A stretch of 64,000 nt of DNA from Candidatus Cloacimonadales bacterium (GCA_963678375.2 OY782831.1:1087030-1151029), one strand, 5' to 3'; counted from the first letter of the stretch, positions 5,321 to 36,688 are shown. Notes: generated by a model not told the origin, from the sequence alone. Numbers and translations: made by a program.

Positions 5321-6124
5321 ATGGATTTTTTCACTTCCCTCTTTACTGTCTCTTTTCTTAGAAATGCCCTCTTAGCTGGTCTATTGGCTAGTATTGTATG
5401 TGGTGTAATTGGGTCTTTTGTCGTTGTTAAAAGAATTTCATTTGTTAGTGGTGCTATTGCTCATTCAGTTCTAGGAGGAATTGGTATCGCCTACTTCATG
5501 AACTTCTCCCCCACTATAGGAGCCTTTATCTTTGCAGTTCTATCAGCTATTTTGATTAGCATAATTAAGCAGAGAAAGAAGCAAAATGAAGATACTGTAC
5601 TAAGTGCCTTTTGGGCAGTTGGTATGGCTATTGGTATCATTTTTATGTCAATGACTCCCGGCTATAACTCAAATCTGATGACCTATCTCTTTGGTAATAT
5701 TCTGCTAGTAACTAATTCAGACTTGCTTTCTTTATTAATTCTAGTATTTGTAATTCTTGCTACAGTTCTTGTTTTTTATCGTCAGTTTATAGCTATGATT
5801 TTTGATGAAGAGTTTGCAAGGTTAAAAAAGATTAAAGTCAATTTTCTCTATACCTTACTATTAATTCTCATCTCTCTAAGTGTCGTTATTCTTATCAGAG
5901 TGGTAGGTATTATCTTAGTTATAGCTCTCCTTACACTTCCTGCTGCTATCTCTCGTCTTTTTAATAGATCAATAGGGGGGATGATGGTGTGGGCTTCTTT
6001 CTTAGGCTTAATCTTTACCTTTTTAGGATTATGGTTTTCTTATCTATTAAATCTGCCCACAGGTTCTGTAATAATCGTTTTGGCTGGTTTAACTTATATA
6101 ATAGGAACTCTCATTAAAAGCTAA
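5321..6124 (+). CDS. znuB: Metal ABC transporter permease (ZnuB-like)
   Basis: A polytopic hydrophobic protein directly after znuC. ATG 5321 is preferred over GTG 5306, which overlaps the znuC stop, but the start is uncertain. Confidence 0.7.
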   Translation: MDFFTSLFTVSFLRNALLAGLLASIVCGVIGSFVVVKRISFVSGAIAHSVLGGIGIAYFMNFSPTIGAFIFAVLSAILISIIKQRKKQNEDTVLSAFWAVGMAIGIIFMSMTPGYNSNLMTYLFGNILLVTNSDLLSLLILVFVILATVLVFYRQFIAMIFDEEFARLKKIKVNFLYTLLLILISLSVVILIRVVGIILVIALLTLPAAISRLFNRSIGGMMVWASFLGLIFTFLGLWFSYLLNLPTGSVIIVLAGLTYIIGTLIKS

Positions 6125-6455
6125 ATCTTAGCTATAATCATTTAATTTCCTCATCATTACTGTGATTTTTATTGCTTGATAATTACTATGCCCATGAAAT
6201 CCTAGGAGTTTATTGCGACACTAACAGTGAAGGAAGCATCACGAGCATAAGCATATCTCTCTCAATTACTTGTATAAAGTACTAAATAATACATAACTAG
6301 TTAATTCCCTCTGTTTTTTGTAGGGAGTCAATACAAATTCAATCCCAACTTTTGAGGGCATAGTCTTAGCATAGCCACAAAAGATGTAAGAATAATCTGC
6401 ACTCTTCACTAAGGCCATACTACATCATCTAGTTTAAAATTAGTTAAATGGATAT

Positions 6456-6490
6456 TAGAAAAGCCTACTCTTTAAAAAGAATAGGCTTGT
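6456..6490 (-). terminator. Rho-independent-type terminator downstream of the GLUG-repeat gene
   Basis: AAGCCTA (6461-6467) pairs with TAGGCTT (6482-6488). On the minus strand the stem is followed by TTTTCT. Confidence 0.5.
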
Positions 6491-6506
6491 TGTTAATATT
6501 TATATT

Positions 6507-9500
6507 TTAATCGTTTATTATTACGCGGAAGAAGGCTTTGGTATCATTTGCCTGAGTATCGTATTGTAGGTTTGAAGTTACTCCCAACTCAAGCCAACCC
6601 GGGTCATCATTAGCTAAAGGAGTATCTGCTTTAAGAACCTTATAGGTAGTTACACCTGGAACAGCATCCCATTCTATCCGAACTGTATTTGCATTAAGCT
6701 GGCTTATAATAGGATAGATATCTTGTTCAGGCAACTCAATATGTTCTCGTAAATATGGATAACCTGAGTTATAATAATAACTTTCATCAGCCATCCAAGT
6801 ACTATTGAAATCATAAACATAGTAGGTATTTACATAAGGATATGTCATCTGTGCTGTTGTTCGGGCATAACTACCAACAGAACCAAGCTGACCTGAAGTT
6901 TCTCCATTAAAATAATTATAAAGATACATATCATCGGCTGTAGTACCCGAACCGATCATGCCACCTGTATTGTTCGAGCCTGTTACTAAACCTGTAGAGT
7001 AACAACGATAAACACGAGAATTAGAGCTATAAACATTGCCTATTAATCCACCAACTTCTTCTATACCGGTAGTTTGGCTATGACTAAAAGAGTCATAAAC
7101 ATAACCTGCATTTAAATAACCTAATAAGCCACCTACGTAGTTAGAACCTTTGATAATAACGTTTGTATGGCATTCACTTATGGTTGAACTTGTAGTAGCT
7201 CGTCCCACTAATCCTCCAACATAATGATTACCCAGCAAATTACCTTGAGCAGAACAGAGACTAACTGTACTGCCACTTATCTGACCTGCAAGCAGTCCTG
7301 AATTGTTTTGTCCTGATATAACACCTGTAATATTACTTGAATTAATACCAGTACCTGAAGTTGCATAAGCAACAAGAGTCGCTACTTGGTTTTTACCATT
7401 CACATTAGCATCTGTTATATTCACATTCTCAATTAAAGCATCATAGCCGTAACCGAAAAGAGCTTGATAATCACTATTCGGGTTATTCACAACTAATCCA
7501 GAGATAGTAAAACCATTACCATTAAAGCTTCCCCGGAAATAATGACTACTATTATATCTTCCAATTGGAGTAAAACCAAGCCCCTGTTTCCAAATCACAG
7601 AAGAAGACATATCTATATCATTCATCAATTCATAATGACCATAATAATCTTGCCTCATAGCATCTAATTGACAAGCTGCAGTTATTTGATAAGGAAATGC
7701 TTCTGTACCATTACCAGTAAGCTCTGATAGGCTTACTTGCTCCATTGAAGTATAAACAGTAAGATCTTGGATCTCGGGATAAGTGTTAAATCCGGTAAAA
7801 TCCCAAACCTGATTGAAATTAAAATTACTATAAGTTGCATGGTTCTGCATCTGACTAGTACTTAATCCTGTTCCTGCAATGCTGCTATCCTGTCCTGAAG
7901 TCTGGATATCCCAGTAGCTGTAATAAACATTTCCATTGCTATTGCCACCTAGAAGCCCACCAACTTCATTATCTCCTTCCACTATTCCTGTAGAAAAACT
8001 TCGACTGATAACAGAACCGTTTCCGAATAAATAGCCAACTAAACCACCAACCTCATTGTAGCCATTAACGTTTACATGGCTAAAACAATCTACTACTTGT
8101 CCATTATATACATGGCCAGTCAGCCCACCAACGTTCTCATAACCTATGATATCCCCATTACTATGAGAATAATAGAGAGATGTTTGATTTATTGAACCAA
8201 CTAAAGCTCCAATATAATTTTCACCCACAACATTACTGTTAGATGAACAATATAAAATTGAGGAGTAGTTGACTTGACCAGCCATATCTCCCAAGTAATT
8301 CTGTCCTAATACCTCTCCTGAAGTATGGCAGTTATAAATACTGCTACTAGAAGCCGATGTTCCTATAAGACCACCGACATTATTTCTTCCATGTACATTA
8401 AAGTCTTCTAACCTGAGGTTCTTTATTTCTGCTCCACTTACATAAGCAAACAGACCTTGATAATCTTCAACTGGTTTATTTATCACCAGGCCGGTAATAG
8501 TAAAATCATTACCATTAAAAGATCCTCTAAAGAAATGATTACTTGAGCCTGCCCCTATTGATTCAAAACCTTGTCCATTGTTCCAAATTACAGAAGAGGT
8601 TATATCAATATCATTCATAAGCTCATAATGAGCGTAATAATCCTGTCTGATTGCATCTAAATGAGAAGCTGTGTAAATTTGATAAGGAAATGCTTCTGTA
8701 CCGTTACCGGTAAGCTCTGATAGGCTTACTTGAGACAAAGGGGTATAGATAGTAAGATCTTGGAAGATTGGATAAGTATTAGCTTCTGCGAAAGCCCAAA
8801 CTTGATCAAAATTATAATTACGATAAGTCCCTTGCTCATGCATTTGATTAGTGGTTAATCCTGTTCCTGCAACACTATTAGACTCTCCAGAACTTTGAGT
8901 ATCCCAGTAAGAGTAATAAACAGAACCACTATTGTTGCTGCCTAAAAGACCACCTACTTCTGTTTCTCCTACTACTATTCCTGTAGCAAAACTTCTACTA
9001 ATAACTGCATTACTACCAGATAAATAGCCTACTAATCCACCGACTTTCTCGATTCCGGTTACTGTAGAATGACTATAAGAATCTACTAGCTTTCCCTCAG
9101 TTATATAGCCTATCATACCACCAACTTCATTATTTCCTGTAATAGCACCATTACTATATGAGTAATAAACAGAGCTACCTAAGTTGTAGCCCACAAGGCC
9201 TCCAACATAGTCTGTACCCTCTAAGGAACCTCGGGCAGAGGAAAGTGTTAACTGTGAGTTGTATGTTGAACCAATAAGTAGTCCTGTACGCTCCTGAGAG
9301 CTCATTTCGCCATCAGAATGACAATTAAAAATACTTGAATTAGTTGAATAACCCGTTAGAGCTCCAACTTTATTCTGTCCTGTAATGTTAAAATCTACTA
9401 ATCTAACATTCTTGATATTTGCATAACTTATTGAAGCAAAAAGCCCAATATAATCTGTTTCAGGTTGATTTATATAAAGATTACTTATAGTAAAACCGGC

Positions 9501-28034: not shown

Positions 28035-30386
28035 ATGAAAAAAAGCTTACTTCTATTACTTTTAGCAACCACAAGCCTGCTATTTAGTCAGGGAACTTTA
28101 CCTGATTGCTATCCAACCAACCAAGAAATCACTGATCAGATTCTTCAATATCAAGAAGACTACCCTGAAATTTGCCAAGTTTCAATAGCTGGTTACTCTC
28201 AACAAGACAATTTACCTATCTATTTGGTTAAATTATCTCAAGATGTTGAAGAATTTCAAGCTGAAAAACCTGTTGTTTTGTTTAGCTCTCTTATCCACGC
28301 TGAAGAAGTTTTAGGTATTCCTATTACTCTTAAAACCATGGATGAGATTCTCACAAACCAAAATAGTGCTCCATACTCTAATTGGTTGCAACATTTACAA
28401 ATCTACTTTATACCTACTTTAAATCCTGAAGGTTATCAAGTAGTAACTGATGGACTTGACACTTCTTTCCGCAAAAACAAACGTGATAATGATGAAAATG
28501 GTTTGTTTGATTTCAATGCTGTAGTTGGCCATGATATTGATGGTGTAGACCCTAACCGTAACTTCCCTCTAAATTGGGTACACGGAGACACACTTTATTC
28601 TACTTCTGGACTTGAAGTATATGATTACTATCGCGGACCAGCTCCCCTATCTGAATCAGAAGTTAATGTTATTTGGGATTTTGTTGAAGAATATAAACCA
28701 GTTTATTCAATCCAATGGCATTCATCTAGAACAGGTAATTTATCTGAAAAAGTCTACTATCCTTGGAATTGGTACAATCTTAGACCTTCACCTGATGTCG
28801 ATATGTCAGAACAATTGGGTCTAGGTATTGCTACTAATATGCTTAAAGAAAATCAAGCAAACACTTATGAGTGCTACCCTGGTACAGGTCGTAAGGGGAG
28901 TCAAGATCATTCCCTTTATCAAGCTTTTGGAACCCTACAAATCTTAGTTGAATGTGGAACCCTTAACCTTCAACCTGAAGAAGATGGTATGAACTTTGTT
29001 GCCCAACAAGGCTATAACGCTTCAGCTTGGATGCTTAATAGAGCTCTCCCTACCAGTATTGATACAGATTCAAACTCTATGCTAACTGGTGTTATTACTG
29101 ATGCTGTTACAGGCCAACCTTTAGAAGCAGAAATTGAAATTGACGGGAGAAATCAGAGATATCTAAGACCTAGATTATCACTAGCTGAAAGTGGAAGATA
29201 CTTCCGTCCTTTAGTTAATGGACAATATACTCTTATTGTTAAAAAAGAAGGCTATTATACCCATACTCAAAATATTACTGTCTATAATGTTAGAACTACT
29301 AAAAATGTAGAACTAAATCCACTTCCTGCTCCCAACTCAAGCCTAGCACTTAATGTTGAAGGTTTCTGGGGACAAGGCAAGGTAAAACTGGAATATTTAG
29401 ATATAGCTGACCATGTAGTTGAAGTTGATGATTTATCTCCTGATAATGTTAACAATATCGACCTTATTTCTGGAGATGTTATCCTTACTTTTGAAAGTGA
29501 AGATCGCTATTTCACTGATGAATTCACTATTCCTGCCGGTCCTTCTGCTATTAATATAGATCTTAATAATTTCCAAGATCTCTTCACTGATAACTTCGAG
29601 AACTTAGATAACTGGACAGGGACTGACAACTGGGCTATTACTTCATATACTAATTCTGAAGGAATTTCTCAATCATTTATGTCAGACTCTAAACACTGGA
29701 ACTTTACCTTTGAATCAGGTTTTGATAACTCTTTCTATGAACATAATTGCGATTATCATTTAACTACTACTGAGCCAATTTCTATTAACCCAGATAATAT
29801 TAATTATATCGAATTGGAACATTGGCTTTATACTGAATGGGATTATGACTGGGCAACAGTTTATATTAGCCCTGATGGAGTAAACTGGATAGATACACCT
29901 GTTTGGACCGAATCTGGTCAGTTTGACTACCTTCATAAAGATTGGATTAAAATTCCTGAAGATTTCAGCTCAAATCAACTTTACATCACCTTATCACTCA
30001 CTGATGATGGTGCTGAACAGAGATTGGTTGACCCAGGTTGGAATATTAACAAGATTTCAGTTAAATCTTTTTCACCTCTTGTAACTTCAAATGAAAATGA
30101 TGCTATTCAACCTTCAACTTCAATCCTAGGAAAAAACTATCCTAACCCATTTAATCCTGAAACCTCAATCAGCTTTAATTTAGATAATAATTTGAATAAA
30201 AATGCTAAGATTGAAATTTATAACTTAAGGGGTCAGAAAGTGAAACAAATCCCTCTTCATGAAAATGAGATTAAAGCTGGAAAAGTTACTTGGAATGCTG
30301 AAGATCAAGCTTCTGGTGTTTACCTATATCGCTTGACTTCTGATGGTATTGTGATTGATACTAAAAAAGCTACACTAATGAAATAA
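28035..30386 (+). CDS. M14-family zinc carboxypeptidase-like protein with a carboxypeptidase-regulatory-like domain and a T9SS C-terminal domain
   Basis: Signal peptide. 'SLIHAEEVLG' (HxxE), 'GVDPNRNF', 'GVITDAVTGQPLEAEIEI'. C-terminus 'KNYPNPFNPETSISF...SGVYLYRL'. Confidence 0.7.
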   Translation: MKKSLLLLLLATTSLLFSQGTLPDCYPTNQEITDQILQYQEDYPEICQVSIAGYSQQDNLPIYLVKLSQDVEEFQAEKPVVLFSSLIHAEEVLGIPITLKTMDEILTNQNSAPYSNWLQHLQIYFIPTLNPEGYQVVTDGLDTSFRKNKRDNDENGLFDFNAVVGHDIDGVDPNRNFPLNWVHGDTLYSTSGLEVYDYYRGPAPLSESEVNVIWDFVEEYKPVYSIQWHSSRTGNLSEKVYYPWNWYNLRPSPDVDMSEQLGLGIATNMLKENQANTYECYPGTGRKGSQDHSLYQAFGTLQILVECGTLNLQPEEDGMNFVAQQGYNASAWMLNRALPTSIDTDSNSMLTGVITDAVTGQPLEAEIEIDGRNQRYLRPRLSLAESGRYFRPLVNGQYTLIVKKEGYYTHTQNITVYNVRTTKNVELNPLPAPNSSLALNVEGFWGQGKVKLEYLDIADHVVEVDDLSPDNVNNIDLISGDVILTFESEDRYFTDEFTIPAGPSAINIDLNNFQDLFTDNFENLDNWTGTDNWAITSYTNSEGISQSFMSDSKHWNFTFESGFDNSFYEHNCDYHLTTTEPISINPDNINYIELEHWLYTEWDYDWATVYISPDGVNWIDTPVWTESGQFDYLHKDWIKIPEDFSSNQLYITLSLTDDGAEQRLVDPGWNINKISVKSFSPLVTSNENDAIQPSTSILGKNYPNPFNPETSISFNLDNNLNKNAKIEIYNLRGQKVKQIPLHENEIKAGKVTWNAEDQASGVYLYRLTSDGIVIDTKKATLMK

Positions 30387-30419: not shown

Positions 30420-30446
30420 AAAGCCCCGTAAATGGGGCTTTTTTTA
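30420..30446 (+). terminator. Rho-independent terminator (left edge of the A+T-rich island)
   Basis: AGCCCC, GTAAAT loop, GGGGCT, followed by T7. Confidence 0.85.
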
Positions 30447-30508
30447 ATATCTTCAGTATAGAACTGTTTCACCTAGCATTGAACAAAATCATAAAAATAC
30501 AAAATTTT

Positions 30509-30538
30509 TTGTTACTTTTTCTATTAATCTCTTATAAT
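30509..30538 (+). promoter_or_regulatory. Candidate promoter of the AAA+ ATPase gene
   Basis: TTGTTA (30509-30514), an 18-nt spacer, TATAAT (30533-30538), then GGAGG and ATG 30563. Confidence 0.35.
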
Positions 30539-30562
30539 ATAAAAACTAATTGGAGGTTTTTT

Positions 30563-32401
30563 ATGAAAGTATACAAATACTTGGCTGAAATTGGAGATTT
30601 GATATGTTTACAAAAGGATAAAACTGATTTGGATTCTTTGATAGATAATTTTATAAACCTAGAGATAATAAAGCCCTACTCTTTAAGCAGTTTTGATATT
30701 AAATTTATAGCATGCATGTGGATCGAAGTAATTGAGAACAATACTACTACAACAGATATATTTAGTATTCTATCAAAATTTATCACATCCCGAAATGAAC
30801 ATCTAGATTCTTTCGACAATATTATTACTTTGTTAAAAAAAGATATTCTATACTCTTCTATTAAAGAAGTAATAATCTTGGATAATTGGTTAGAAGATAC
30901 AAATATATATATAAATTATAAAAAGAGTGAACTAATAACTTGTAAGATTGAATTTCATAGAGATTTTATACAGCTACTTTTTGGAGAAAAAAAAATCAAG
31001 CAAGTAGATAGTAACATCCCTTATGAGAACAACCTAGAATATCTTAGTGATTGGTTCTCTTATCTTGAATACCTCAACAATTTTAAAGACGAGAAGTCAT
31101 GTTCTACTTGTAAAAACAAAATCTTATCTTCTTATAGGGCTCAAACTTACTTAAAGGTCTTTAACTGGAGAATTAAAATAAACAATAGATTGAAATTATC
31201 CAATCAGACATTTGCATTTGATACTCTTAGTGAAGAATTTAATTTAAATACAAAAGAGAAGATAATTCTTATGTATCTTGTAAAAGCAAAATTAGAGGGT
31301 GAAATATTTTCTACTAAAGATGTTGTTGAGCTTATTAGTATAAATCAAAATGAGATATTTGCTAATAAGCAATATCTTGACCCAAAGGGACACTTAGCTA
31401 AAAGCAGATTAATTGAATTTACAGAAAGCTCATCGCTTATTTCAGAAGACATAGATATTAAAATTTCAACAGATATCATAAATAGAATTTTCAATAAAGA
31501 GCCTGTGACTGATGAAGATAAAATAAAACAAATCATAGAAAGTGATAGTATATTTACCTTGATAAAACCCACACAGACTTTTGAACAGCTAATTCTTCCT
31601 TTAGATATTAAGGATACGATAAAAACATCTCTTAAACTATATGACCGAACAGTTAGTTCCACAATGCAATCATGGGGCCTGTTGGAAAAACCTGCTAATT
31701 TGCTTGGAGATGATAAAAGGCATAAACAAAGTCTGTTGATGCTCTTTTACGGACAGCCAGGTACAGGCAAAACATTTACGGCAAGAGTAATAGCAAATTA
31801 TTTAGGTAAATACTTATTAGTAACTGATATAAGCAAACTAAAATCTAAATGGGTAGGAGAGAGTGAAAAGAATATTAAACGTTTGTTTACTACTTATGAG
31901 AAAATAGTCAGAAAAGTTGAAAATCCTCCTGTATTACTGCTTAATGAAGCAGATCAATTTTTAACTAAAAGAAATAGTAAGTCTGGAAATCCTGTTGAGA
32001 ACATGCTTAATTCTATGCAAAACTTATTCTTGGAATCTTTCGAAAACCTTGATGGCTTTTTAATAGCTACTACTAATCTAGTAGATAATCTTGATGAAGC
32101 CTTTAGTAGAAGATTTCACCTTAAATTTAAGTTACCATCACCTACAGCAAATGAAAGATTAAAATTATGGAAATCCAAACTTCCCAATATTATTCCAGGG
32201 TATGAAGATATTGATTTGATTTATCTAGCCAATAACTATAATCTAACAGGTGGACAAATCGATGTGATTATCCAAAATGCTTGTACTCAAGCAGCAGCAA
32301 AAGAGGTGCCTTTATTGACACAAACTGATTTAGAAAAATACTGCAATCTCGAGAAGAATAGTGCCTTTGATAAAACTAAAAGAAAACTTATAGGGTTTTA
32401 G
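30563..32401 (+). CDS. AAA+ ATPase (classical AAA clade) with an uncharacterised N-terminal region of about 390 aa
   Basis: ATG 30563 follows GGAGG; the track's TTG start at 30479 is rejected. Walker A 'GQPGTGKT', Walker B region 'VLLLNEADQF', 'ATTNLVDNLDEAFSRRF' (sensor-1/Arg finger region). Confidence 0.75.
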   Translation: MKVYKYLAEIGDLICLQKDKTDLDSLIDNFINLEIIKPYSLSSFDIKFIACMWIEVIENNTTTTDIFSILSKFITSRNEHLDSFDNIITLLKKDILYSSIKEVIILDNWLEDTNIYINYKKSELITCKIEFHRDFIQLLFGEKKIKQVDSNIPYENNLEYLSDWFSYLEYLNNFKDEKSCSTCKNKILSSYRAQTYLKVFNWRIKINNRLKLSNQTFAFDTLSEEFNLNTKEKIILMYLVKAKLEGEIFSTKDVVELISINQNEIFANKQYLDPKGHLAKSRLIEFTESSSLISEDIDIKISTDIINRIFNKEPVTDEDKIKQIIESDSIFTLIKPTQTFEQLILPLDIKDTIKTSLKLYDRTVSSTMQSWGLLEKPANLLGDDKRHKQSLLMLFYGQPGTGKTFTARVIANYLGKYLLVTDISKLKSKWVGESEKNIKRLFTTYEKIVRKVENPPVLLLNEADQFLTKRNSKSGNPVENMLNSMQNLFLESFENLDGFLIATTNLVDNLDEAFSRRFHLKFKLPSPTANERLKLWKSKLPNIIPGYEDIDLIYLANNYNLTGGQIDVIIQNACTQAAAKEVPLLTQTDLEKYCNLEKNSAFDKTKRKLIGF

Positions 32402-32570
32402 AAATACCATGCATGAGATTAATAATATGAATATAGTTTTTATATATTTGATAGGCTATTTCATTGAATTGAGTTTTTAATGCATGTTAATTTTTATAAA
32501 ATATATTGACTAGAAATTTATAGCTGTTTATTTTTGTTGAAGTTAAAGAAATCTAAGCAAGGAGTTTGTC

Positions 32571-34634
32571 ATGACAGATAATAAGTATGGTTTGATTTTG
32601 ATTGAAGATTTATTTAAAAACAAAAATTTTATAATTCCTGATTATCAAAGAGGATATTCTTGGGAAATAGAACATCAAGAAGCTTTCTTAAAAGATGTTA
32701 TGAGAGCAATCGAGTTAGATGATTATATCCATTTCACAGGAACGATTGTTGTTCATCATACTGAAAATGGATATGAAGTTGTAGATGGCCAACAGAGACT
32801 TACAACTTTAGTAATACTTCTAAAAGTACTTTATAATAAGATTAACAAGGAAATATCTTTCGAAGAGTTTAATAAAAAGTTTTCATTGCAATTAAATAAA
32901 GAAACCAATGACTTTTATAAGGGAATTTTATTTTTCAATACTAACCCAGCAATAGATAACAAATCTTGTAGAAGTATTAAAAATTGTTACGACTTATTTA
33001 ATGAAAAGCTAGATGATATTATTCCCAACGTTGATTTAAAAGACTTTGAAGCACAACTAATGAAAAAGATTGGATTTCTTTTTTACATTACAACTAATCA
33101 TAAAAATATTGGAGCAATGTTCGAAATCATTAACAACAGAGGAAAAAGTTTAAGCCAATTAGAAAAAATAAAAAACTATCTTATTTATTATGCTACAGTC
33201 AACAACAATGTTGAAATTAAAGAACTAATTAATACTTTATGGGGAAAAATATTATATAACCTCATGAAGTGTAATAAAGTTAGTAATGAAGAAGAGAATA
33301 GTTTTTTAAGATATCTTTGGGTCGTTTTTTCTGATACAAAAATTAAAGATAGTTATGATATTTATAGTCTAGTAAAAGATGCTTTCCCAGATGAGGGTGA
33401 CATAGCAAATATTGAGGATGTAAAAAGTTTCATACACTTCATCCATTCATCCTCACGTGCATACCTTGAATTATTTACAAGTGATAATATTTTTTGTATG
33501 AACCTAAGAAACCATAGCCCTTTGGTTCCAATATTACCATTGTTCATTAGCATAAAAAATAGTGAAAACGTAGATGAAGAAGAAAAAAATGAGCTCTTGA
33601 ATTTGATTGAGATTTTAAATTTTAGAGTTTATGTTCTTCCATCCAAACAAAGATCTGATAAAGGACAAAGTACTTTATTTGCTTTAGCATATCAGTTTTA
33701 TAACGATAAATTTGAAATAAACAAGGATGACAAAAATGAAATTGAATTATTTAATAACAAAGATGACACACTTAAAAAAAATCTTAGTGTCGAAGTACTT
33801 AAGTATAGATTGATAAAATTTATTAATGAAAATTGTGATGAAAATACTTTTGTTCAGAATTTAACATTAGACATAGGAGAGAAATATGATTATTATAAAT
33901 GGAACGGATTGAAATTTTTCCTTGCAAATTATGAAGTATATCTATCCCAAGAGAAAGACGGAAGAACAGAGAAAATTGAATCATATCTAAATGCACAAGG
34001 TAATGAAAGAAATGATAAACAAGAAAAAGAGCATATTTGGGCAAGAGCAAACAGAGAATTTGAGACTGTAATAACTACTATAAATGATAAAAAGGAAAAA
34101 ATTAAACAAATTAATTTAACAAATCTGCATGAGAAATCTAGATTAGGAAATTTTGTGTTATTACATAAGAATACTAACATTGTGGCTTCAAATAGTGATT
34201 TGTCTAATTTTGAGGGAAAAGTAGCAAGTAAATATCTTGTTCATCATACAAAGAGTAAAAATACAAAAAAAGAAGTAAACTTCAAATTAAATGAATATAA
34301 AAAAATAAATAAGCAAAACATCCAAGTGAATAATTTAGAAGAATATCATAATAATTCTAAACAATATATCACTGACAGTAAAAAAGATTATAAATTCAGA
34401 TTTTTAGATTATTATCAAAATATTATAGATTTAAATGAAACAGAGTTAGTAAATTTTGCTTTAAAGAGATGGAGTTATCCAAACGAGAAATTAAATAAGT
34501 TTATAATAGATTCTAAATTAGCTCAACTGAAATATCAAAAATCCAAAGATTCTGTTAAAGTATACTTCAAAAAAAGTGAATATAAAGAAAGTATTAAAAA
34601 TGCAAATAATATCTTTAATAATCAAAAAATATAA
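32571..34634 (+). CDS. DUF262/DUF1524 (GmrSD-like) putative type IV restriction/defence nuclease
   Basis: N-terminal 'IIPDYQRGYSWE' and 'VVDGQQRLTT' (DUF262, ParB-like NTPase). C-terminal 'EKEHIWAR' and 'LGNFVLLHKNTNIVASN' (DUF1524 His-Me finger). Confidence 0.75.
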   Translation: MTDNKYGLILIEDLFKNKNFIIPDYQRGYSWEIEHQEAFLKDVMRAIELDDYIHFTGTIVVHHTENGYEVVDGQQRLTTLVILLKVLYNKINKEISFEEFNKKFSLQLNKETNDFYKGILFFNTNPAIDNKSCRSIKNCYDLFNEKLDDIIPNVDLKDFEAQLMKKIGFLFYITTNHKNIGAMFEIINNRGKSLSQLEKIKNYLIYYATVNNNVEIKELINTLWGKILYNLMKCNKVSNEEENSFLRYLWVVFSDTKIKDSYDIYSLVKDAFPDEGDIANIEDVKSFIHFIHSSSRAYLELFTSDNIFCMNLRNHSPLVPILPLFISIKNSENVDEEEKNELLNLIEILNFRVYVLPSKQRSDKGQSTLFALAYQFYNDKFEINKDDKNEIELFNNKDDTLKKNLSVEVLKYRLIKFINENCDENTFVQNLTLDIGEKYDYYKWNGLKFFLANYEVYLSQEKDGRTEKIESYLNAQGNERNDKQEKEHIWARANREFETVITTINDKKEKIKQINLTNLHEKSRLGNFVLLHKNTNIVASNSDLSNFEGKVASKYLVHHTKSKNTKKEVNFKLNEYKKINKQNIQVNNLEEYHNNSKQYITDSKKDYKFRFLDYYQNIIDLNETELVNFALKRWSYPNEKLNKFIIDSKLAQLKYQKSKDSVKVYFKKSEYKESIKNANNIFNNQKI

Positions 34635-34940
34635 TAGTTTTTATATTGTTTAAAATGTCTATCAATAAATAAGATTAAGTACAGTGGGAAAAAACATGGA
34701 TTTATTATAATAACTTGTTGGCACGATATTAAACCCCTACAGGGTTGCTTTAGTTTCGGTTATTATACCTAGGGTGACACTCCTAATTGGAGCTTACCCC
34801 AGGCTAAATTACTAATCCCTTTGAGTCTTCGCTAAAGCTATGCCTTAACAGGTCAGGGATATTTTGAATATAATCATACTAATGATAAAATTTAGTCTTT
34901 AACAATTTTCTTCCACCAGACTTGAACTTGAGCCTTCTAT

Positions 34941-35804
34941 TTAAAGATATCTTGATGCTAAATAATCAATATAATCCTTATGGTTTTGATAATGTTTCTT
35001 ATAAAGTTTAACTATCAATTCTTGATAAGATAGCGAAATGAAATTTATCTTATCTTTTTTAGCGATTTTTTTAAACTCTTCAATTTCAGATCTGTGTTGC
35101 TGACCTTCACATCCAAATGTATCATACCATAAATAAAGAAGCTTAAAAGCTTTCTTATTTTTGTATTTTTCATTTAATCCAAGTATGTGTTTGATTAATT
35201 GAGCTATGTGTAAATGTTTTATATCTTTTTCATCAGGTGATATTTTAATAGCTAATTGTTTTAAATTCGGTAAGTCTTTCCAAATATCCTTTTTTAAATA
35301 TATGCCTTGCACTCCACTTTGTTTTTTGGCGGGATATGCTTCAGTAAATTTACATTCGATTGCAAAAACTTCGATTTTTGAGTTCTTCTTATTTTTAATT
35401 ACTACATCTATATTTGGTGATTTTTGAAAAGATTTATCAATTATATATTTTTCCTCAAAAACAATACTTGATGAGATCTTATTACTTTCTCTGCAAAATC
35501 CACAAGCTGATGCAATCTGAGATATGTCTTTATTAATCCAGTATTGAAAAATGTTAAGCCCTAAGGCTGAGGAAGAATGTAAAGCATTCATCTTAGCTTT
35601 AATATTCCCCTTTGAAGTCAACTCTCCACCATCAGCAACCTTAAACATTTCCTTAATATCTTCAGATATAGGCATAAAAAAATTATCCTCTAAGGAATCA
35701 CAGTATATTTCTCGTCCACTTATTGTCTCACTACCAACCAGTTTTATGTTGTTTCTTTTTGCCCACAACTCTAGCTTGTTTAGTATTATTTCTTTGCTGT
35801 TCAT
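34941..35804 (-). CDS. Predicted PD-(D/E)xK-fold nuclease (restriction-endonuclease-like), convergent with the GmrSD-like gene
   Basis: 'PNIDVVIKNKKNSKIEVFAIECKFTE' fits the D...(D/E)xK pattern. 'ALHSSSALGLNIF' lies upstream. No adjacent methyltransferase. Confidence 0.5.
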   Translation of the reverse strand: MNSKEIILNKLELWAKRNNIKLVGSETISGREIYCDSLEDNFFMPISEDIKEMFKVADGGELTSKGNIKAKMNALHSSSALGLNIFQYWINKDISQIASACGFCRESNKISSSIVFEEKYIIDKSFQKSPNIDVVIKNKKNSKIEVFAIECKFTEAYPAKKQSGVQGIYLKKDIWKDLPNLKQLAIKISPDEKDIKHLHIAQLIKHILGLNEKYKNKKAFKLLYLWYDTFGCEGQQHRSEIEEFKKIAKKDKINFISLSYQELIVKLYKKHYQNHKDYIDYLASRYL

Positions 35805-35950
35805 CTATTCTCCTAAGTTTTTAATTTTTCCAATAAAACAAGATATCTCCACCTATTCTTGATTGCTACTTTCCTTATTAAAATCCAATAACTTATGGAG
35901 AGATTAACAATCAAGAAAGCAAAAGAAAGGAAAGTTTATTTTTATAAAAC

Positions 35951-36688
35951 CTAGCTAGAGAATTCTTTAAGGTATTTCTCTGCTTGAGTTAAATCTGCAG
36001 GAGTATCAATGCCAATACCAGTATAAGTGGTTTTAACCATCTTAATTTTAAAACCATTTTCTAAGAATCTTAACTGTTCAAGTTTCTCAATCTTTTCTAA
36101 AGGACTTTGCTCAAGATTAACAAAATCAAGTAATGCTTGTTTTCTATAAGCATAAACTCCAACATGTTTAAAATATTTAACATCAGAAATTTTATCACGA
36201 TTAAAAGGTATTGGAGAACGAGAGAAATACAAGGCCTGGTGATTTACTCCACAAACAACTTTTACATTATTAGGATTAGAAATCTCTTCTTGGTCTTTAA
36301 TTTCATGCATCAAGGAAGCAAGGTTAACGCTTTTGTCTTCAAAAGCTGCTATAAGCTCTTTGAGAGGTTCAATTTTAATAAAAGGTTCATCACCCTGGAC
36401 ATTGATTATTAGGTCGTAATCCAGTTCCTGAACAACTTCTGCTATTCTATCAGTACCACTTTGATGATTCTCAGATGTTAGGATACAAGTAGCTCCAAAA
36501 TCTTGAACTCTCTTTTGAATCATTTCATTATCTGTTGCTATAATAATAGGAAGGTTAAGTCCTTTAACGGCTTCATATACATGTTGAATAATAGGTTTAT
36601 TTGCAAGAGAAACAAGGGGCTTACCAGGGAAGCGAGTAGAGGCAAATCTGGCAGGTATAACAATAATTGTCTTTAAATTTGAACTCAT
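35951..36688 (-). CDS. kdsB: 3-deoxy-manno-octulosonate cytidylyltransferase
   Basis: 'IVIPARFASTRFPGKPL', 'SGTDRIAE', 'NVQGDEPFI'. Confidence 0.9.
   Translation of the reverse strand: MSSNLKTIIVIPARFASTRFPGKPLVSLANKPIIQHVYEAVKGLNLPIIIATDNEMIQKRVQDFGATCILTSENHQSGTDRIAEVVQELDYDLIINVQGDEPFIKIEPLKELIAAFEDKSVNLASLMHEIKDQEEISNPNNVKVVCGVNHQALYFSRSPIPFNRDKISDVKYFKHVGVYAYRKQALLDFVNLEQSPLEKIEKLEQLRFLENGFKIKMVKTTYTGIGIDTPADLTQAEKYLKEFSS

What the first reader, a model, noticed from the sequence alone, without database searches (positions are those of the whole stretch)
30447..35950. A+T-rich three-gene island: AAA+ ATPase, GmrSD-like DUF262/DUF1524 nuclease and a convergent PD-(D/E)xK-like nuclease (candidate defence locus)
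The 5.5-kb block lies between a strong terminator (30420-30446) and the kdsB operon. By eye it is more A+T-rich than its flanks and uses Lys/Asn/Ile-heavy codons, though I computed no numbers.

Every gene in it has a conflict-system flavour:
- an AAA+ ATPase with a large unassigned N-terminal region
- a DUF262 (DGQQR) plus DUF1524 (His-Me finger) fusion of the GmrSD/BrxU/SspE type
- an oppositely oriented nuclease-like ORF with a D...ECK motif

There is no methyltransferase, integrase or phage gene nearby. The combination of an AAA+ ATPase with a GmrSD-type nuclease and a second nuclease is not a named system that I recognise, so it may be a new multi-gene arrangement. It could equally be three stand-alone defence genes stacked in a hotspot.
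Basis: partly seen in the sequence, partly recalled or inferred. Interest (0 to 1): 0.7.

Follow-up and report, generated by a model that had tools for sequence, protein, structure and literature searches.

The report
Stacked defence genes, not one system
This A+T-rich 5.5-kb block is a small pile-up of three separately mobile anti-phage-type genes, not a new three-gene machine, but its AAA+ ATPase belongs to an undescribed family that repeatedly sits beside swappable DNA-cutting enzymes and deserves a test of its own.

Summary
Three ORFs lie between an M14 peptidase and kdsB. The block is the lowest-GC stretch of the window (27.3% vs 32.8%).

The "new three-gene system" reading is not supported.
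- The AAA+ gene (true start 30563, 612 aa) is a self-contained cassette with its own promoter and a conserved ~115-bp 3' element.
- In its closest relatives (81-97% identity) that cassette sits at different genomic sites. It is followed by McrB/McrBC in three distinct relatives and by housekeeping genes in one, never by the GmrSD-like or REase-ARP gene.
- The GmrSD-like protein is a HEC-06-type enzyme. HEC-06 is a validated single-gene defence.
- The PD-(D/E)xK protein belongs to Pfam REase-ARP. That family is mobile and usually solitary or paired with an AIPR protein. It was never found next to an AAA+ homologue (0 of 163 loci).

The interesting residue is the AAA+ family. It has tandem winged-helix N-terminal modules with no structural relative, a Vps4/p97-like unfoldase module, and an invariant NE Walker B. 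In other phyla it sits in operons behind a BrxR-like WYL regulator and ahead of variable nucleases. PADLOC has no full-length model for it, and I found no paper on it.

The parts
30420..30446 (+). G+C-rich hairpin plus T-run (intrinsic-terminator-like) at the left edge of the block. The sequence just after it is shared with relative L086, where the upstream gene is different, so it probably belongs to the AAA+ cassette.
   Evidence: Terminator scan. Alignment A7.
30478..30562 (+). Conserved upstream region of the AAA+ cassette: promoter-like TTGTTA-N18-TATAAT (30509-30538) and GGAGG ribosome-binding site (30552-30556).
   Evidence: DNA homology with L001, L002 and L086 begins here while the upstream genes differ. 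Promoter scan.
30563..32401 (+). AAA+ ATPase, 612 aa. The N-terminal ~376 aa hold two winged-helix-like modules. The C-terminal part is a classical-clade AAA module: Walker A GQPGTGKT, Walker B NE instead of DE, pore loop KWVGESEK, and arginine-finger motif AFSRRF.
32402..32515 (+). Conserved 3' element of the AAA+ cassette (~115 bp): an AU-rich imperfect hairpin plus a U-rich tract, ending in a TTGACT -35-like box (32506-32511). Homology with relatives stops right after it.
   Evidence: Alignments A3 and A6. The fold is not better than shuffled sequence (z = -0.39).
32506..32534 (+). Promoter-like site TTGACT-N17-TATTTT for the GmrSD-like gene. The -35 box lies in the conserved element and the -10 box in the cargo.
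   Evidence: Alignment A6.
32571..34634 (+). GmrSD-family (HEC-06-like) DUF262 + DUF1524 nuclease, 687 aa. It carries DGQQR at residues 72-76, E487-H488, R524-L-G-N527 and N536.
34941..35804 (-). REase-ARP family PD-(D/E)xK nuclease, 287 aa (D133, E150-C151-K152). It is solitary here, with no AIPR partner, and lies on the same strand as kdsB, downstream of it.

Best explanation
The block is a small defence islet made of three autonomous modules. They have come to lie side by side and do not form an obligate system.

(1) GmrSD-like gene. It encodes a single-polypeptide, HEC-06-type, modification-dependent (type IV) restriction enzyme. By analogy with GmrSD, BrxU and HEC-06, the DUF262 domain (DGQQR) binds and hydrolyses NTP, and the DUF1524 His-Me finger (E-H...N...N) cuts phage DNA that carries modified bases. 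No methylase is needed. This mechanism is inferred from family membership.

(2) REase-ARP gene. It encodes a stand-alone PD-(D/E)xK DNA nuclease of a horizontally mobile family. Here it is without the AIPR partner it has elsewhere.

(3) AAA+ gene. It is a self-contained cassette: terminator-like hairpin, promoter, gene, then a 115-bp 3' element. It encodes a hexameric, Vps4/p97-like, substrate-threading ATPase with a family-specific tandem winged-helix N-terminus.

In this Cloacimonadota lineage, the junction right after the conserved TTGACT box of the cassette is a recurrent exchange point for methylase-less restriction cassettes. GmrSD sits there in this genome and McrBC with a hypervariable McrB N-terminus in relatives; one relative, which keeps only the first ~45 bp of the 3' element, has housekeeping genes downstream.

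Shown: the domain content, the intact catalytic motifs, the cassette boundaries, the cargo replacement, and the lack of three-gene co-occurrence.

Inferred: anti-phage activity, separate transcription of the genes, and the unfoldase mechanism.
For: Cassette boundaries and cargo swap:
- DNA shared with L001 (82%), L002 (89%) and L085 (97%) runs from about 85 bp before the ATG to about 115 bp after the stop, then breaks.
- Downstream genes are GmrSD + REase-ARP (window), McrB-like (L085), McrB + McrC (L001, L002/L003), and BamA/radical-SAM/IspD/GlmS (L086).
- The upstream genes differ in all of them.

GmrSD-like gene:
- PADLOC HEC-06 match at E 2.5e-33.
- Family-invariant DGQQR and E-H/N motifs.
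- Pfam GmrSD_C hits 25 of 30 family members.
- HEC-06 protects as a single gene, and mutating these motifs abolishes defence (bioRxiv 10.1101/2024.01.29.577857).
- Homologues sit as guests inside MmeI/Eco57I-type loci.

REase-ARP gene:
- 1770 homologues at 50-66% identity across phyla.
- Contexts are unrelated to the AAA+ or to each other: housekeeping genes; IS91/integrase/Mutator elements; an AIPR partner on a conjugative element.
- It lies within 5 kb of an AAA+ homologue in 0 of the 163 loci compared.

Islet character: lowest GC in the window, and core genes on both flanks.
Against: - The AAA+ subfamily is not randomly placed. Type IV enzymes (McrB or GmrSD) lie within 5 kb in 7 of 47 full-length-subfamily loci against 0 of 116 distant-clade loci (p = 1e-4).
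- GmrSD-type genes neighbour it independently in L015, L098 and L167.
- In other phyla the AAA+ stop overlaps or abuts a nuclease gene (L006 -4 bp, L105 +11 bp). Functional coupling with a nuclease therefore cannot be excluded.
- No strong terminator separates the AAA+ and GmrSD-like genes, so read-through is possible.
- REase-ARP also lies beside a GmrSD gene in L178.
- The loci compared are not phylogenetically independent.
- Synteny of the M14-kdsB junction in relatives could not be examined.
Confidence: 0.65

Rival explanations
1. Modular two-part system. The winged-helix AAA+ ATPase is the conserved sensor or motor of a defence system whose nuclease effector is interchangeable (DUF2779, GmrSD, McrBC, HNH, PD-(D/E)xK, MBL). 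In most lineages a BrxR-like WYL repressor controls it. In this window the GmrSD-like protein would be the current effector, and the AAA+ would recruit, license or reset it, for example by unfolding a phage inhibitor or remodelling the nuclease.
For: - In 47 full-length-subfamily loci, WYL lies within 5 kb in 24, DUF2779 in 10, McrB in 4, GmrSD in 3 (5 by Pfam) and MBL in 3. In 116 distant-clade loci the counts are 2, 1, 0, 0 and 0.
- WYL-to-AAA+ gaps are 46-70 bp. The gap from AAA+ to the next gene is often -4 to +21 bp, which suggests operons.
- No methyltransferase family appears among the 25 commonest neighbour families.
- Across L085, L001, L002/L003 and the window the cargo is always attached at the same junction, with a shared -35 box.
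Against: - GmrSD/HEC-06 and McrBC are complete, self-sufficient enzymes (established knowledge for McrBC).
- L086 (81% identity) has no nuclease neighbour.
- In the window's clade a 170-bp spacer with its own promoter-like site separates the genes.
- Many subfamily loci have only small ORFs, or nothing recognisable, downstream.
- Co-location in defence islands produces exactly this kind of enrichment without any functional link.
Confidence: 0.2
2. The AAA+ is an ordinary cellular protein-remodelling or stress ATPase with no role in defence. The GmrSD-like and REase-ARP genes simply landed in the permissive intergenic space between it and kdsB.
For: - A large Campylobacterota-type clade of the family is a core gene fixed between nfo/fadL/acyl-CoA ligase and nuoABCD, and the genes inserted there are housekeeping.
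- L086 has a purely housekeeping context.
- The window's AAA+ gene has native-looking GC3 (z = -0.2).
- There is no full-length hit to any PADLOC model. The NCBIfam IteA score is 91 against a cutoff of 510.
Against: - The full-length subfamily to which the window protein belongs is strongly enriched for WYL regulators and nucleases.
- The cassette sits at a different locus in each close relative.
- The distant clade lacks the first ~120-150 residues and is only ~33% identical, so it may have a different function.
Confidence: 0.12
3. The block is a remnant of a prophage, integrative element or transposon that delivered all three genes together.
For: - Low G+C and sharp boundaries.
- REase-ARP homologues ride with IS91, integrase and Mutator elements and with a conjugative element elsewhere.
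Against: - No integrase, transposase, tRNA or convincing flanking repeat lies in or beside the block.
- There are no PHROG hits beyond generic AAA or DUF262 matches.
- The three genes have different histories in relatives.
Confidence: 0.03

Closest known systems
HEC-06 / GmrSD-family type IV restriction enzymes (also BrxU, SspE)
   Same: Single polypeptide with an N-terminal DUF262 domain carrying DGQQR, a long helical linker, and a C-terminal DUF1524 His-Me finger (E-H...N...N). Best PADLOC hit is HEC-06. It occurs as a guest gene next to other defence genes.
   Different: Only ~35-43% identical to its nearest full-length homologues. The HEC-06 profile covers only residues 11-420. Pfam GmrSD_C falls below threshold in this protein. 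There is no Hma, BREX or Ssp system around it. The target modification is unknown.
McrBC, the cargo at the same junction in relatives
   Same: A methylase-independent, NTP-dependent restriction module attached after the same conserved AAA+ 3' element.
   Different: McrBC is not present in this window. The window's AAA+ is a classical-clade AAA, not a McrB-type AAA_5 GTPase.
IetAS (IetA/IteA AAA ATPase plus IetS protease) and other classical-clade AAA ATPases (Vps4, p97/Cdc48, Msp1, PAN, FtsH)
   Same: The AAA module has a Vps4-like pore loop (KWVGESEK) and arginine-finger motif. Best PADLOC and NCBIfam hits are IetA/IteA. Best structural hits are p97, Msp1, PAN, FtsH and Vps4.
   Different: The similarity is confined to the ~210-residue AAA module (91 bits against the IteA cutoff of 510). 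No IetS-like protease is nearby. The N-terminal 376 residues (tandem winged helix) have no structural relative. Walker B is NE, not DE.
BrxR/CapW-type WYL-regulated defence operons
   Same: In 24 of 47 loci of the same AAA+ subfamily an HTH-WYL-WCX gene lies within 5 kb, and where it directly precedes the AAA+ gene the gap is 46-70 bp, as BrxR precedes BREX and other defence loci.
   Different: No WYL gene exists anywhere in this 64-kb window. The cassette has its own promoter instead.
Pfam REase-ARP (PF22558) / PDDEXK_13, paired with AIPR abortive-infection proteins
   Same: Full-length match with an intact D...ExK motif. 50-66% identical to members in many phyla.
   Different: Solitary here, convergent with the GmrSD-like gene and lacking an AIPR neighbour. 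No member has been characterised as far as I could find.

Membership tests
GmrSD family (DUF262 + DUF1524; HEC-06-like) | N-terminal DUF262/GmrSD_N domain with the DGQQR motif | tested here: met
   PF03235 at E 4.4e-34, residues 11-204. D72-G-Q-Q-R76 is invariant in the 30-sequence family alignment.
GmrSD family (DUF262 + DUF1524; HEC-06-like) | C-terminal DUF1524/GmrSD_C His-Me (HNH-type) nuclease motif | tested here: met
   E487-H488, R524, G526-N527 and N536 are invariant and present in the window protein. PF07510 hits 25 of 30 aligned family members. It does not reach E 0.1 in the window protein alone.
GmrSD family (DUF262 + DUF1524; HEC-06-like) | Match to the HEC-06 profile over the whole protein | tested here: inconclusive
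   PDLC04157 at E 2.5e-33, but covering protein residues 11-420 and profile positions 14-442 of 558.
GmrSD family (DUF262 + DUF1524; HEC-06-like) | Cleaves modified (e.g. glucosyl-hmC) DNA; protects against phage as a single gene | not testable with these tools
   Shown for HEC-06, BrxU and GmrSD in the literature. Not tested for this protein.
SspE (Ssp phosphorothioate-sensing system) | Full-length SspE similarity and neighbouring sspABCD genes | tested here: not met
   SspE profiles match only residues ~17-116. The neighbours are the AAA+ and REase-ARP genes.
IetAS | IetA/IteA equivalog score and an adjacent IetS serine protease | tested here: not met
   NF042959 gives 91 bits against a cutoff of 510, over the AAA module only. 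There is no protease gene in the block.
McrBC | McrB-type AAA_5 GTPase plus McrC nuclease | tested here: not met
   AAA_5 scores 18.8 bits, below its cutoff of 22. Local McrB and McrC HMMs find nothing in the window. McrBC is present in relatives L001 and L002.
Classical-clade AAA+ unfoldase | Walker A, aromatic-hydrophobic-Gly pore loop 1, and second-region-of-homology arginines | tested here: met
   GQPGTGKT, KWVGESEK and AFSRRF are invariant. They align to p97 D1/D2. Top structural hits are p97, Msp1, PAN, FtsH and Vps4.
Classical-clade AAA+ unfoldase | Canonical Walker B hhhhDE | tested here: not met
   LLLNEAD: Asn replaces the Mg-coordinating Asp. This is invariant in 65 sequences. The catalytic Glu is retained. 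The consequence for hydrolysis is unknown.
WYL (BrxR/CapW)-regulated defence operon | HTH-WYL-WCX regulator gene directly upstream | tested here: not met
   The WYL HMM gives no hit anywhere in the window. A WYL gene lies within 5 kb in 24 of 47 loci of the same AAA+ subfamily.
REase-ARP (PF22558), PD-(D/E)xK superfamily | Profile match above the gathering score and an intact D...(D/E)xK catalytic motif | tested here: met
   65.8 bits against a cutoff of 27, residues 38-287. D133 and E150-C151-K152 are invariant in 26 sequences.
REase-ARP (PF22558), PD-(D/E)xK superfamily | Adjacent AIPR (PF10592) partner, which I take to be implied by the family name | tested here: not met
   The neighbours here are the GmrSD-like gene and kdsB. 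An AIPR gene follows the homologue in L179/L180. That 'ARP' means AIPR is my inference.

The most novel reading that the evidence does not exclude
The winged-helix AAA+ ATPase defines an undescribed, widespread anti-phage module of Cloacimonadota, Marinimicrobia, Zixibacteria and others. It would be a BrxR-like WYL-controlled, Vps4-type unfoldase with an NE Walker B and a DNA- or protein-sensing tandem winged-helix N-terminus. It would work together with an interchangeable methylase-less nuclease. In that reading, the AAA+ and GmrSD-like genes of this window are one functional variant of a new modular system, with McrBC and DUF2779 variants elsewhere.
Probability: 0.2. Interest if true: 0.75.

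Novelty: new variant of a known kind. Interest (0 to 1): 0.45.

Why it matters
As a three-gene system the finding dissolves. It is another example of defence genes stacking, and it contains a new, divergent member of the validated HEC-06/GmrSD class.

Two things are still worth carrying forward.
- It gives a very clean natural example of cassette exchange. Alternative type IV restriction modules (GmrSD, or McrBC with a hypervariable specificity domain) are attached at one precise junction behind a conserved gene. This is useful for understanding how defence repertoires turn over in uncultured phyla.
- It points to a discrete AAA+ family that meets the usual guilt-by-association criteria for a defence gene yet has no full-length PADLOC v2.0.0 model and did not appear in the literature I could search. 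Its N-terminal region matches only 79 clusters among 1.84 billion representative proteins and has no structural relative. It is tightly linked to WYL regulators and nucleases.

If the AAA+ family is confirmed, it would add a protein-unfoldase-based mechanism to bacterial immunity.

Tried and rejected
- Three-gene co-occurrence: searched 163 AAA+ loci (47 full-length plus 116 distant-clade) for REase-ARP and found none. GmrSD is present in only a few.
- Mobile-element signatures: no tRNA, no Rfam family, and no convincing flanking direct or inverted repeats. The only candidate is a 13-nt ATAGTTTTTATAT at 32433 and 34634, which may be chance.
- Structured RNA in the conserved 3' element: RNAalifold gives a long AU-rich hairpin with two compensatory pairs, but the single-sequence fold is no better than shuffles (z = -0.39). 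I treat it as at most a weak terminator.
- Hotspot downstream of the AAA+ in Campylobacterota: the inserted genes there are housekeeping (AlaRS, PFOR, CarB, a P-type ATPase, a GGDEF protein). Rejected.
- Fold of the N-terminal region: Foldseek against the PDB and BFVD gave no hit at E <= 0.001, only local MarR/SarA-type winged helices.
- A sequence-profile search of REase-ARP against the PDB found nothing.
- Literature searches for REase-ARP, PF22558, PF22977, and WYL + AAA+ + DUF2779 returned nothing relevant.
- Phage origin: PHROGs gave only generic AAA and DUF262 hits, and none for REase-ARP.
Full report

Yes. Between the M14 carboxypeptidase gene (28035-30386; it carries a T9SS sorting tail) and kdsB (35951-36688, minus strand) lie three ORFs:
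- 30479/30563-32401 (+)
- 32571-34634 (+)
- 34941-35804 (-)

The first ORF, as listed, starts at a TTG. All homologues are 612 aa and align from the ATG at 30563, which follows GGAGG at 30552-30556. The gene is therefore 30563-32401. The terminator-like hairpin at 30420-30441 is detected.

Composition:
- The block is 27.3% G+C against 32.8% for the rest of the window. It is the lowest-GC 5.5-kb stretch in the window.
- Its three genes are the three lowest-GC genes among the 40 genes of at least 150 aa (z = -2.3, -4.1, -2.3).
- Their Lys+Asn+Ile content is high (z = +1.7 to +2.8).
- Third-position G+C is unremarkable for the AAA+ gene (z = -0.2) and the nuclease gene (z = -0.3). It is low only for the GmrSD-like gene (z = -1.7).

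The A+T richness is thus mainly a matter of protein composition. Only the GmrSD-like gene looks compositionally foreign. Other low-GC genes in the window are ordinary (a histidine kinase, HSP20).

**2. What the three proteins are**

*(a) AAA+ ATPase.*
- Pfam gives AAA (residues 421-553 of the 640-aa ORF, E 3e-26) and the variant winged-helix domain PF22977.
- PADLOC and NCBIfam match only the AAA module to IetA/IteA. The NCBIfam score is 91 bits against a curated cutoff of 510.
- An AlphaFold model built on a 65-sequence alignment (mean pLDDT 79.5) places the C-terminal module with p97/Cdc48, Msp1, PAN/Rpt, FtsH and Vps4.
- Family-invariant residues include Walker A GxPGTGKT, the Vps4-like pore loop K-W-V-G-x-S-E-K, and the A-F-S-R-R-F arginine motif. 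These are the hallmarks of a hexameric, polypeptide-threading unfoldase. That mechanism is inferred from established knowledge of the classical AAA clade.
- Walker B is unusual. It reads LLLNEAD: an Asn aligns with the Mg-coordinating Asp of p97 (IIFIDELD). This is invariant in the family.
- The N-terminal 376 residues, modelled alone (pLDDT 83.4), contain two helix-plus-beta-hairpin modules. They have no structural relative at E <= 0.001 in the PDB or BFVD, only local MarR/SarA-like winged-helix similarity.
- Searched against 1.84 billion representative proteins, this N-terminal region finds only 79 clusters (42 at E <= 1e-10). Almost all are 575-655 aa with the same architecture. This is a discrete family with a fixed design.

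*(b) GmrSD-like protein.*
- Pfam finds only GmrSD_N/DUF262 in this protein.
- In an alignment of 30 homologues (34-43% identical to the window protein, >=90% coverage), these residues are invariant and present here: DGQQR (72-76), E487-H488, R524, G526-N527 and N536.
- Pfam GmrSD_C/DUF1524 hits 25 of those 30 homologues.
- The best PADLOC models are HEC-06 (E 2.5e-33), with weaker N-terminal hits to Orf5 and SspE. The best solved relatives are a DUF262 protein (9jfl) and SspE.
- HEC-06 has been shown to protect against phage as a single gene. Mutating its DGQQR and E-H motifs abolishes defence (bioRxiv 10.1101/2024.01.29.577857).
- Homologues P0127 and P0128 (37% identical) sit immediately after MmeI/Eco57I-type methylase genes. 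This fits the "embedded guest gene" behaviour described in that paper.

*(c) PD-(D/E)xK protein.*
- It matches Pfam REase-ARP over its full length (65.8 bits against a cutoff of 27) and PDDEXK_13.
- The family is large (1770 hits) and unusually conserved: 50-66% identity at 284-290 aa across WS2, Ratteibacteria, Bacteroidota and others. That pattern suits a horizontally mobile gene.
- It has no PADLOC, NCBIfam or PHROG hit and no PDB sequence relative.

**3. Do the three genes travel together?**

No.

*AAA+ relatives, close to distant.*

| Locus (identity to window AAA+) | What follows the AAA+ gene |
|---|---|
| L085 (97%) | McrB-like gene |
| L002/L003 (89%) | McrB + McrC |
| L001 (82%) | McrB + McrC |
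| L086 (81%) | BamA, a radical-SAM enzyme, IspD, GlmS (no nuclease) |

- The upstream gene is different in every case where it is known: M14 peptidase, GMP synthase, YitT, M29 peptidase. L085 has no upstream sequence.
- DNA alignments show a shared cassette. It starts about 85 bp before the ATG, including TTGTTA-N18-TATAAT. In L085, L002 and L001 it runs about 115 bp past the stop, ending at a conserved GTTGACTA. L086 keeps only the first ~45 bp past the stop.
- Homology breaks immediately after that box. In the window the box serves as the -35 of a promoter-like site (TTGACT-N17-TATTTT, 32506-32534) for the GmrSD-like gene.
- Relatives L085, L002 and L001 continue from the same box into McrB.
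- The McrB N-terminal domain is hypervariable. L085 against L002 is 41% identical over 121 aa. L085 against L001 is 28%.

*REase-ARP relatives.*
- In the same MAG as L086 (GCA_016342615.1) the 66%-identical homologue is on another contig. It lies beside an HATPase_c_4/HTH protein and a PLD-SNF2 helicase.
- In L170 it lies among housekeeping genes.
- One identical protein occurs in at least three contexts beside an IS91 Y2 transposase, a tyrosine integrase and a Mutator transposase. It also occurs once beside a GmrSD gene split by IS1595.
- In L179/L180 an AIPR (abortive-infection) gene follows it directly, on a conjugative element that also carries AbiEii and an MmeI/type-ISP enzyme. I infer that "ARP" in the Pfam name refers to this AIPR partner, which is absent here.
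- Across the 163 AAA+ loci compared (47 full-length plus 116 distant-clade), no REase-ARP gene lies within 5 kb.

**4. What the AAA+ family's wider context says**

The family splits in two.

*Campylobacterota-type clade* (~578 aa, ~33% identical, lacking the first ~120-150 residues). It is a core gene fixed between nfo/fadL/acyl-CoA ligase and nuoABCD. The genes occasionally inserted there are housekeeping.

*Full-length subfamily*, to which the window protein belongs (37-97% identity; Cloacimonadota, Marinimicrobia, Zixibacteria and others). Its context is very different.

Pfam counts among 146 neighbour proteins within 3 kb in 46 non-redundant loci:

| Neighbour family | Count |
|---|---|
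| WYL / WCX | 22 |
| DUF2779 | 10 |
| GmrSD_N | 5 |
| Metallo-beta-lactamase / beta-CASP | 5 |
| AAA_5 (McrB) | 4 |
| McrC | 3 |
| DUF2130 | 2 |

- PADLOC adds single PDC-S01, PDC-S26 and HEC-05 hits.
- HNH and other PD-(D/E)xK proteins also occur.
- No methyltransferase family is among the 25 commonest neighbour families.

Comparison using locally built HMMs, counting loci with a hit within 5 kb:

| Neighbour | Full-length subfamily (47 loci) | Distant clade (116 loci) | Fisher p |
|---|---|---|---|
| WYL | 24 | 2 | 1e-13 |
| DUF2779 | 10 | 1 | 2e-5 |
| McrB or GmrSD | 7 | 0 | 1e-4 |

The loci are not phylogenetically independent, so these p-values are only indicative.

Spacing argues for real operons in other phyla. 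The WYL-to-AAA+ gap is 46-70 bp. The gap from the AAA+ stop to the next gene is often -4 to +21 bp (DUF2779 at -4 in L006 and +11 in L105; small ORFs at 2-12 bp followed by nucleases).

GmrSD-type genes neighbour the AAA+ independently in L015 (GmrSD-WYL-AAA+), L098 and L167/L168 (WYL-Fic-?-DUF2779-GmrSD-AAA+).

HTH-WYL-WCX regulators of the BrxR/CapW type are known markers and controllers of defence loci (bioRxiv 10.1101/2021.12.19.473356; 10.1101/2022.01.04.474952).

The window has no WYL gene at all.

**5. Most likely explanation**

The block is a stack of three autonomous modules (confidence about 0.65).
- The GmrSD-like gene is a HEC-06-type, methylase-independent restriction enzyme. By analogy it hydrolyses NTP through DUF262 and cuts modified phage DNA with its His-Me finger.
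- The REase-ARP gene is an orphan PD-(D/E)xK nuclease of a mobile family.
- The AAA+ gene is a separate cassette. In this lineage its 3' junction is a recurrent docking and exchange point for type IV restriction cassettes.

Shown: the domains, motifs, boundaries, cargo replacement and lack of co-occurrence. Inferred: anti-phage activity, separate transcription, and the unfoldase mechanism.

Rivals:
- The AAA+ is the conserved partner of an interchangeable nuclease effector (about 0.2). The operonic WYL-AAA+-nuclease loci and the bias toward methylase-less nucleases support this. The self-sufficiency of GmrSD and McrBC, the nuclease-free L086, and the 170-bp spacer with its own promoter oppose it.
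- The AAA+ is an ordinary cellular remodelling ATPase (about 0.12). The core Campylobacterota clade and native GC3 support this. The enrichment data oppose it.
- The block is a mobile-element remnant (about 0.03). There is no integrase, tRNA or flanking repeat.

**6. Comparison with known systems and novelty**
- The GmrSD-like gene is a new, divergent member of a known and validated kind.
- REase-ARP is a curated but uncharacterised family, represented here by a solitary member.
- The AAA+ works like a Vps4/p97-type unfoldase. It fails the membership tests for IetA (score, and no protease partner) and for McrB (wrong AAA clade). It lacks the WYL partner that its subfamily usually has.
- I found no model for the full-length AAA+ protein in PADLOC v2.0.0 and no paper describing it or a WYL-AAA+-DUF2779 arrangement. 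DefenseFinder and literature outside the held library could not be checked.

Overall this is a new variant of a known kind (a defence-gene stack or islet). It contains one component family that could turn out to be new.

**7. Limits**
The insertion history at this site is therefore unknown.
- ORFs in fetched loci were called with a simple longest-ORF procedure.
- The enrichment statistics ignore phylogenetic non-independence and uneven contig lengths.
- No function was tested experimentally.

Noticed in passing
window 31943-31954 (AAA+ residues N461-E462-A-D464 of the 612-aa protein): Walker B reads LLLNEAD instead of hhhhDE. Asn replaces the Mg-coordinating Asp. This is invariant in 65 family members and aligns to D304-E305 of p97. 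The effect on ATP hydrolysis is unknown.
   Followed up: partly
L016-L084 and L113-L166 (Campylobacterota-type loci): A ~578-aa clade of the same AAA+ family, lacking the first ~120-150 residues, is a conserved core gene sitting between nfo/fadL/acyl-CoA ligase and the nuoABCD operon in Sulfurimonas, Sulfurovum, Arcobacter, Sulfurospirillum and Nitratiruptor. Its function is unknown.
   Followed up: partly
L091:647-4549; P0038 and P0043: Two AAA+ paralogues occur in tandem, separated by an 84-aa ORF. Two further paralogues (Candidatus Tenebribacter davisii) both list a longest contig of 40,547 bp, so they may share a contig.
   Followed up: no
L173-L177 (gene at 6001-6867): An identical REase-ARP protein is found in several different genomic places, always next to an IS91-type Y2 transposase, a tyrosine integrase and a Mutator transposase. 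This suggests it rides on a composite mobile element.
   Followed up: no
L178:7728-10076: A GmrSD gene split into GmrSD_N and GmrSD_C halves by an IS1595 insertion lies about 860 bp downstream of a REase-ARP gene. This is a second REase-ARP/GmrSD adjacency, in an unrelated genome.
   Followed up: no
L179:6001-8788 and L180:5387-8174: A REase-ARP gene is followed after 107 bp by a 604-aa AIPR (PF10592) gene on a conjugative element that also carries AbiEii and an MmeI/type-ISP enzyme. This probably explains the family name and may be a two-gene abortive-infection system.
   Followed up: partly
L085:2035-2722, L002:12009-13811, L001:12010-13824: The McrB N-terminal (presumed specificity) domain is hypervariable between close relatives (41% and 28% identity), although the DNA up to the start codon is conserved. 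This is consistent with diversifying selection on target recognition.
   Followed up: partly
window 32433-32445 and 34634-34646: The 13-nt string ATAGTTTTTATAT occurs inside the conserved AAA+ 3' element and again exactly at the GmrSD-like stop codon, so it brackets most of the cargo. It could be a recombination scar or chance in A+T-rich DNA.
   Followed up: partly
L004:11047-16902: A giant (about 1973 aa) UvrD-helicase/PDDEXK_1 fusion lies a few small ORFs downstream of a 46%-identical AAA+ homologue. The small ORFs include an HNH protein and a faint DnaB_C-like protein.
   Followed up: no
L006, L095, L102, L105, L106, L130, L167: DUF2779 proteins (PD-(D/E)xK plus RNase-H-like) recur directly downstream of the AAA+, sometimes with overlapping stop and start codons. 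They are sometimes preceded by a ~510-aa protein with a D...ESK motif or by ~80-aa ORFs. The literature library holds no defence role for DUF2779.
   Followed up: partly
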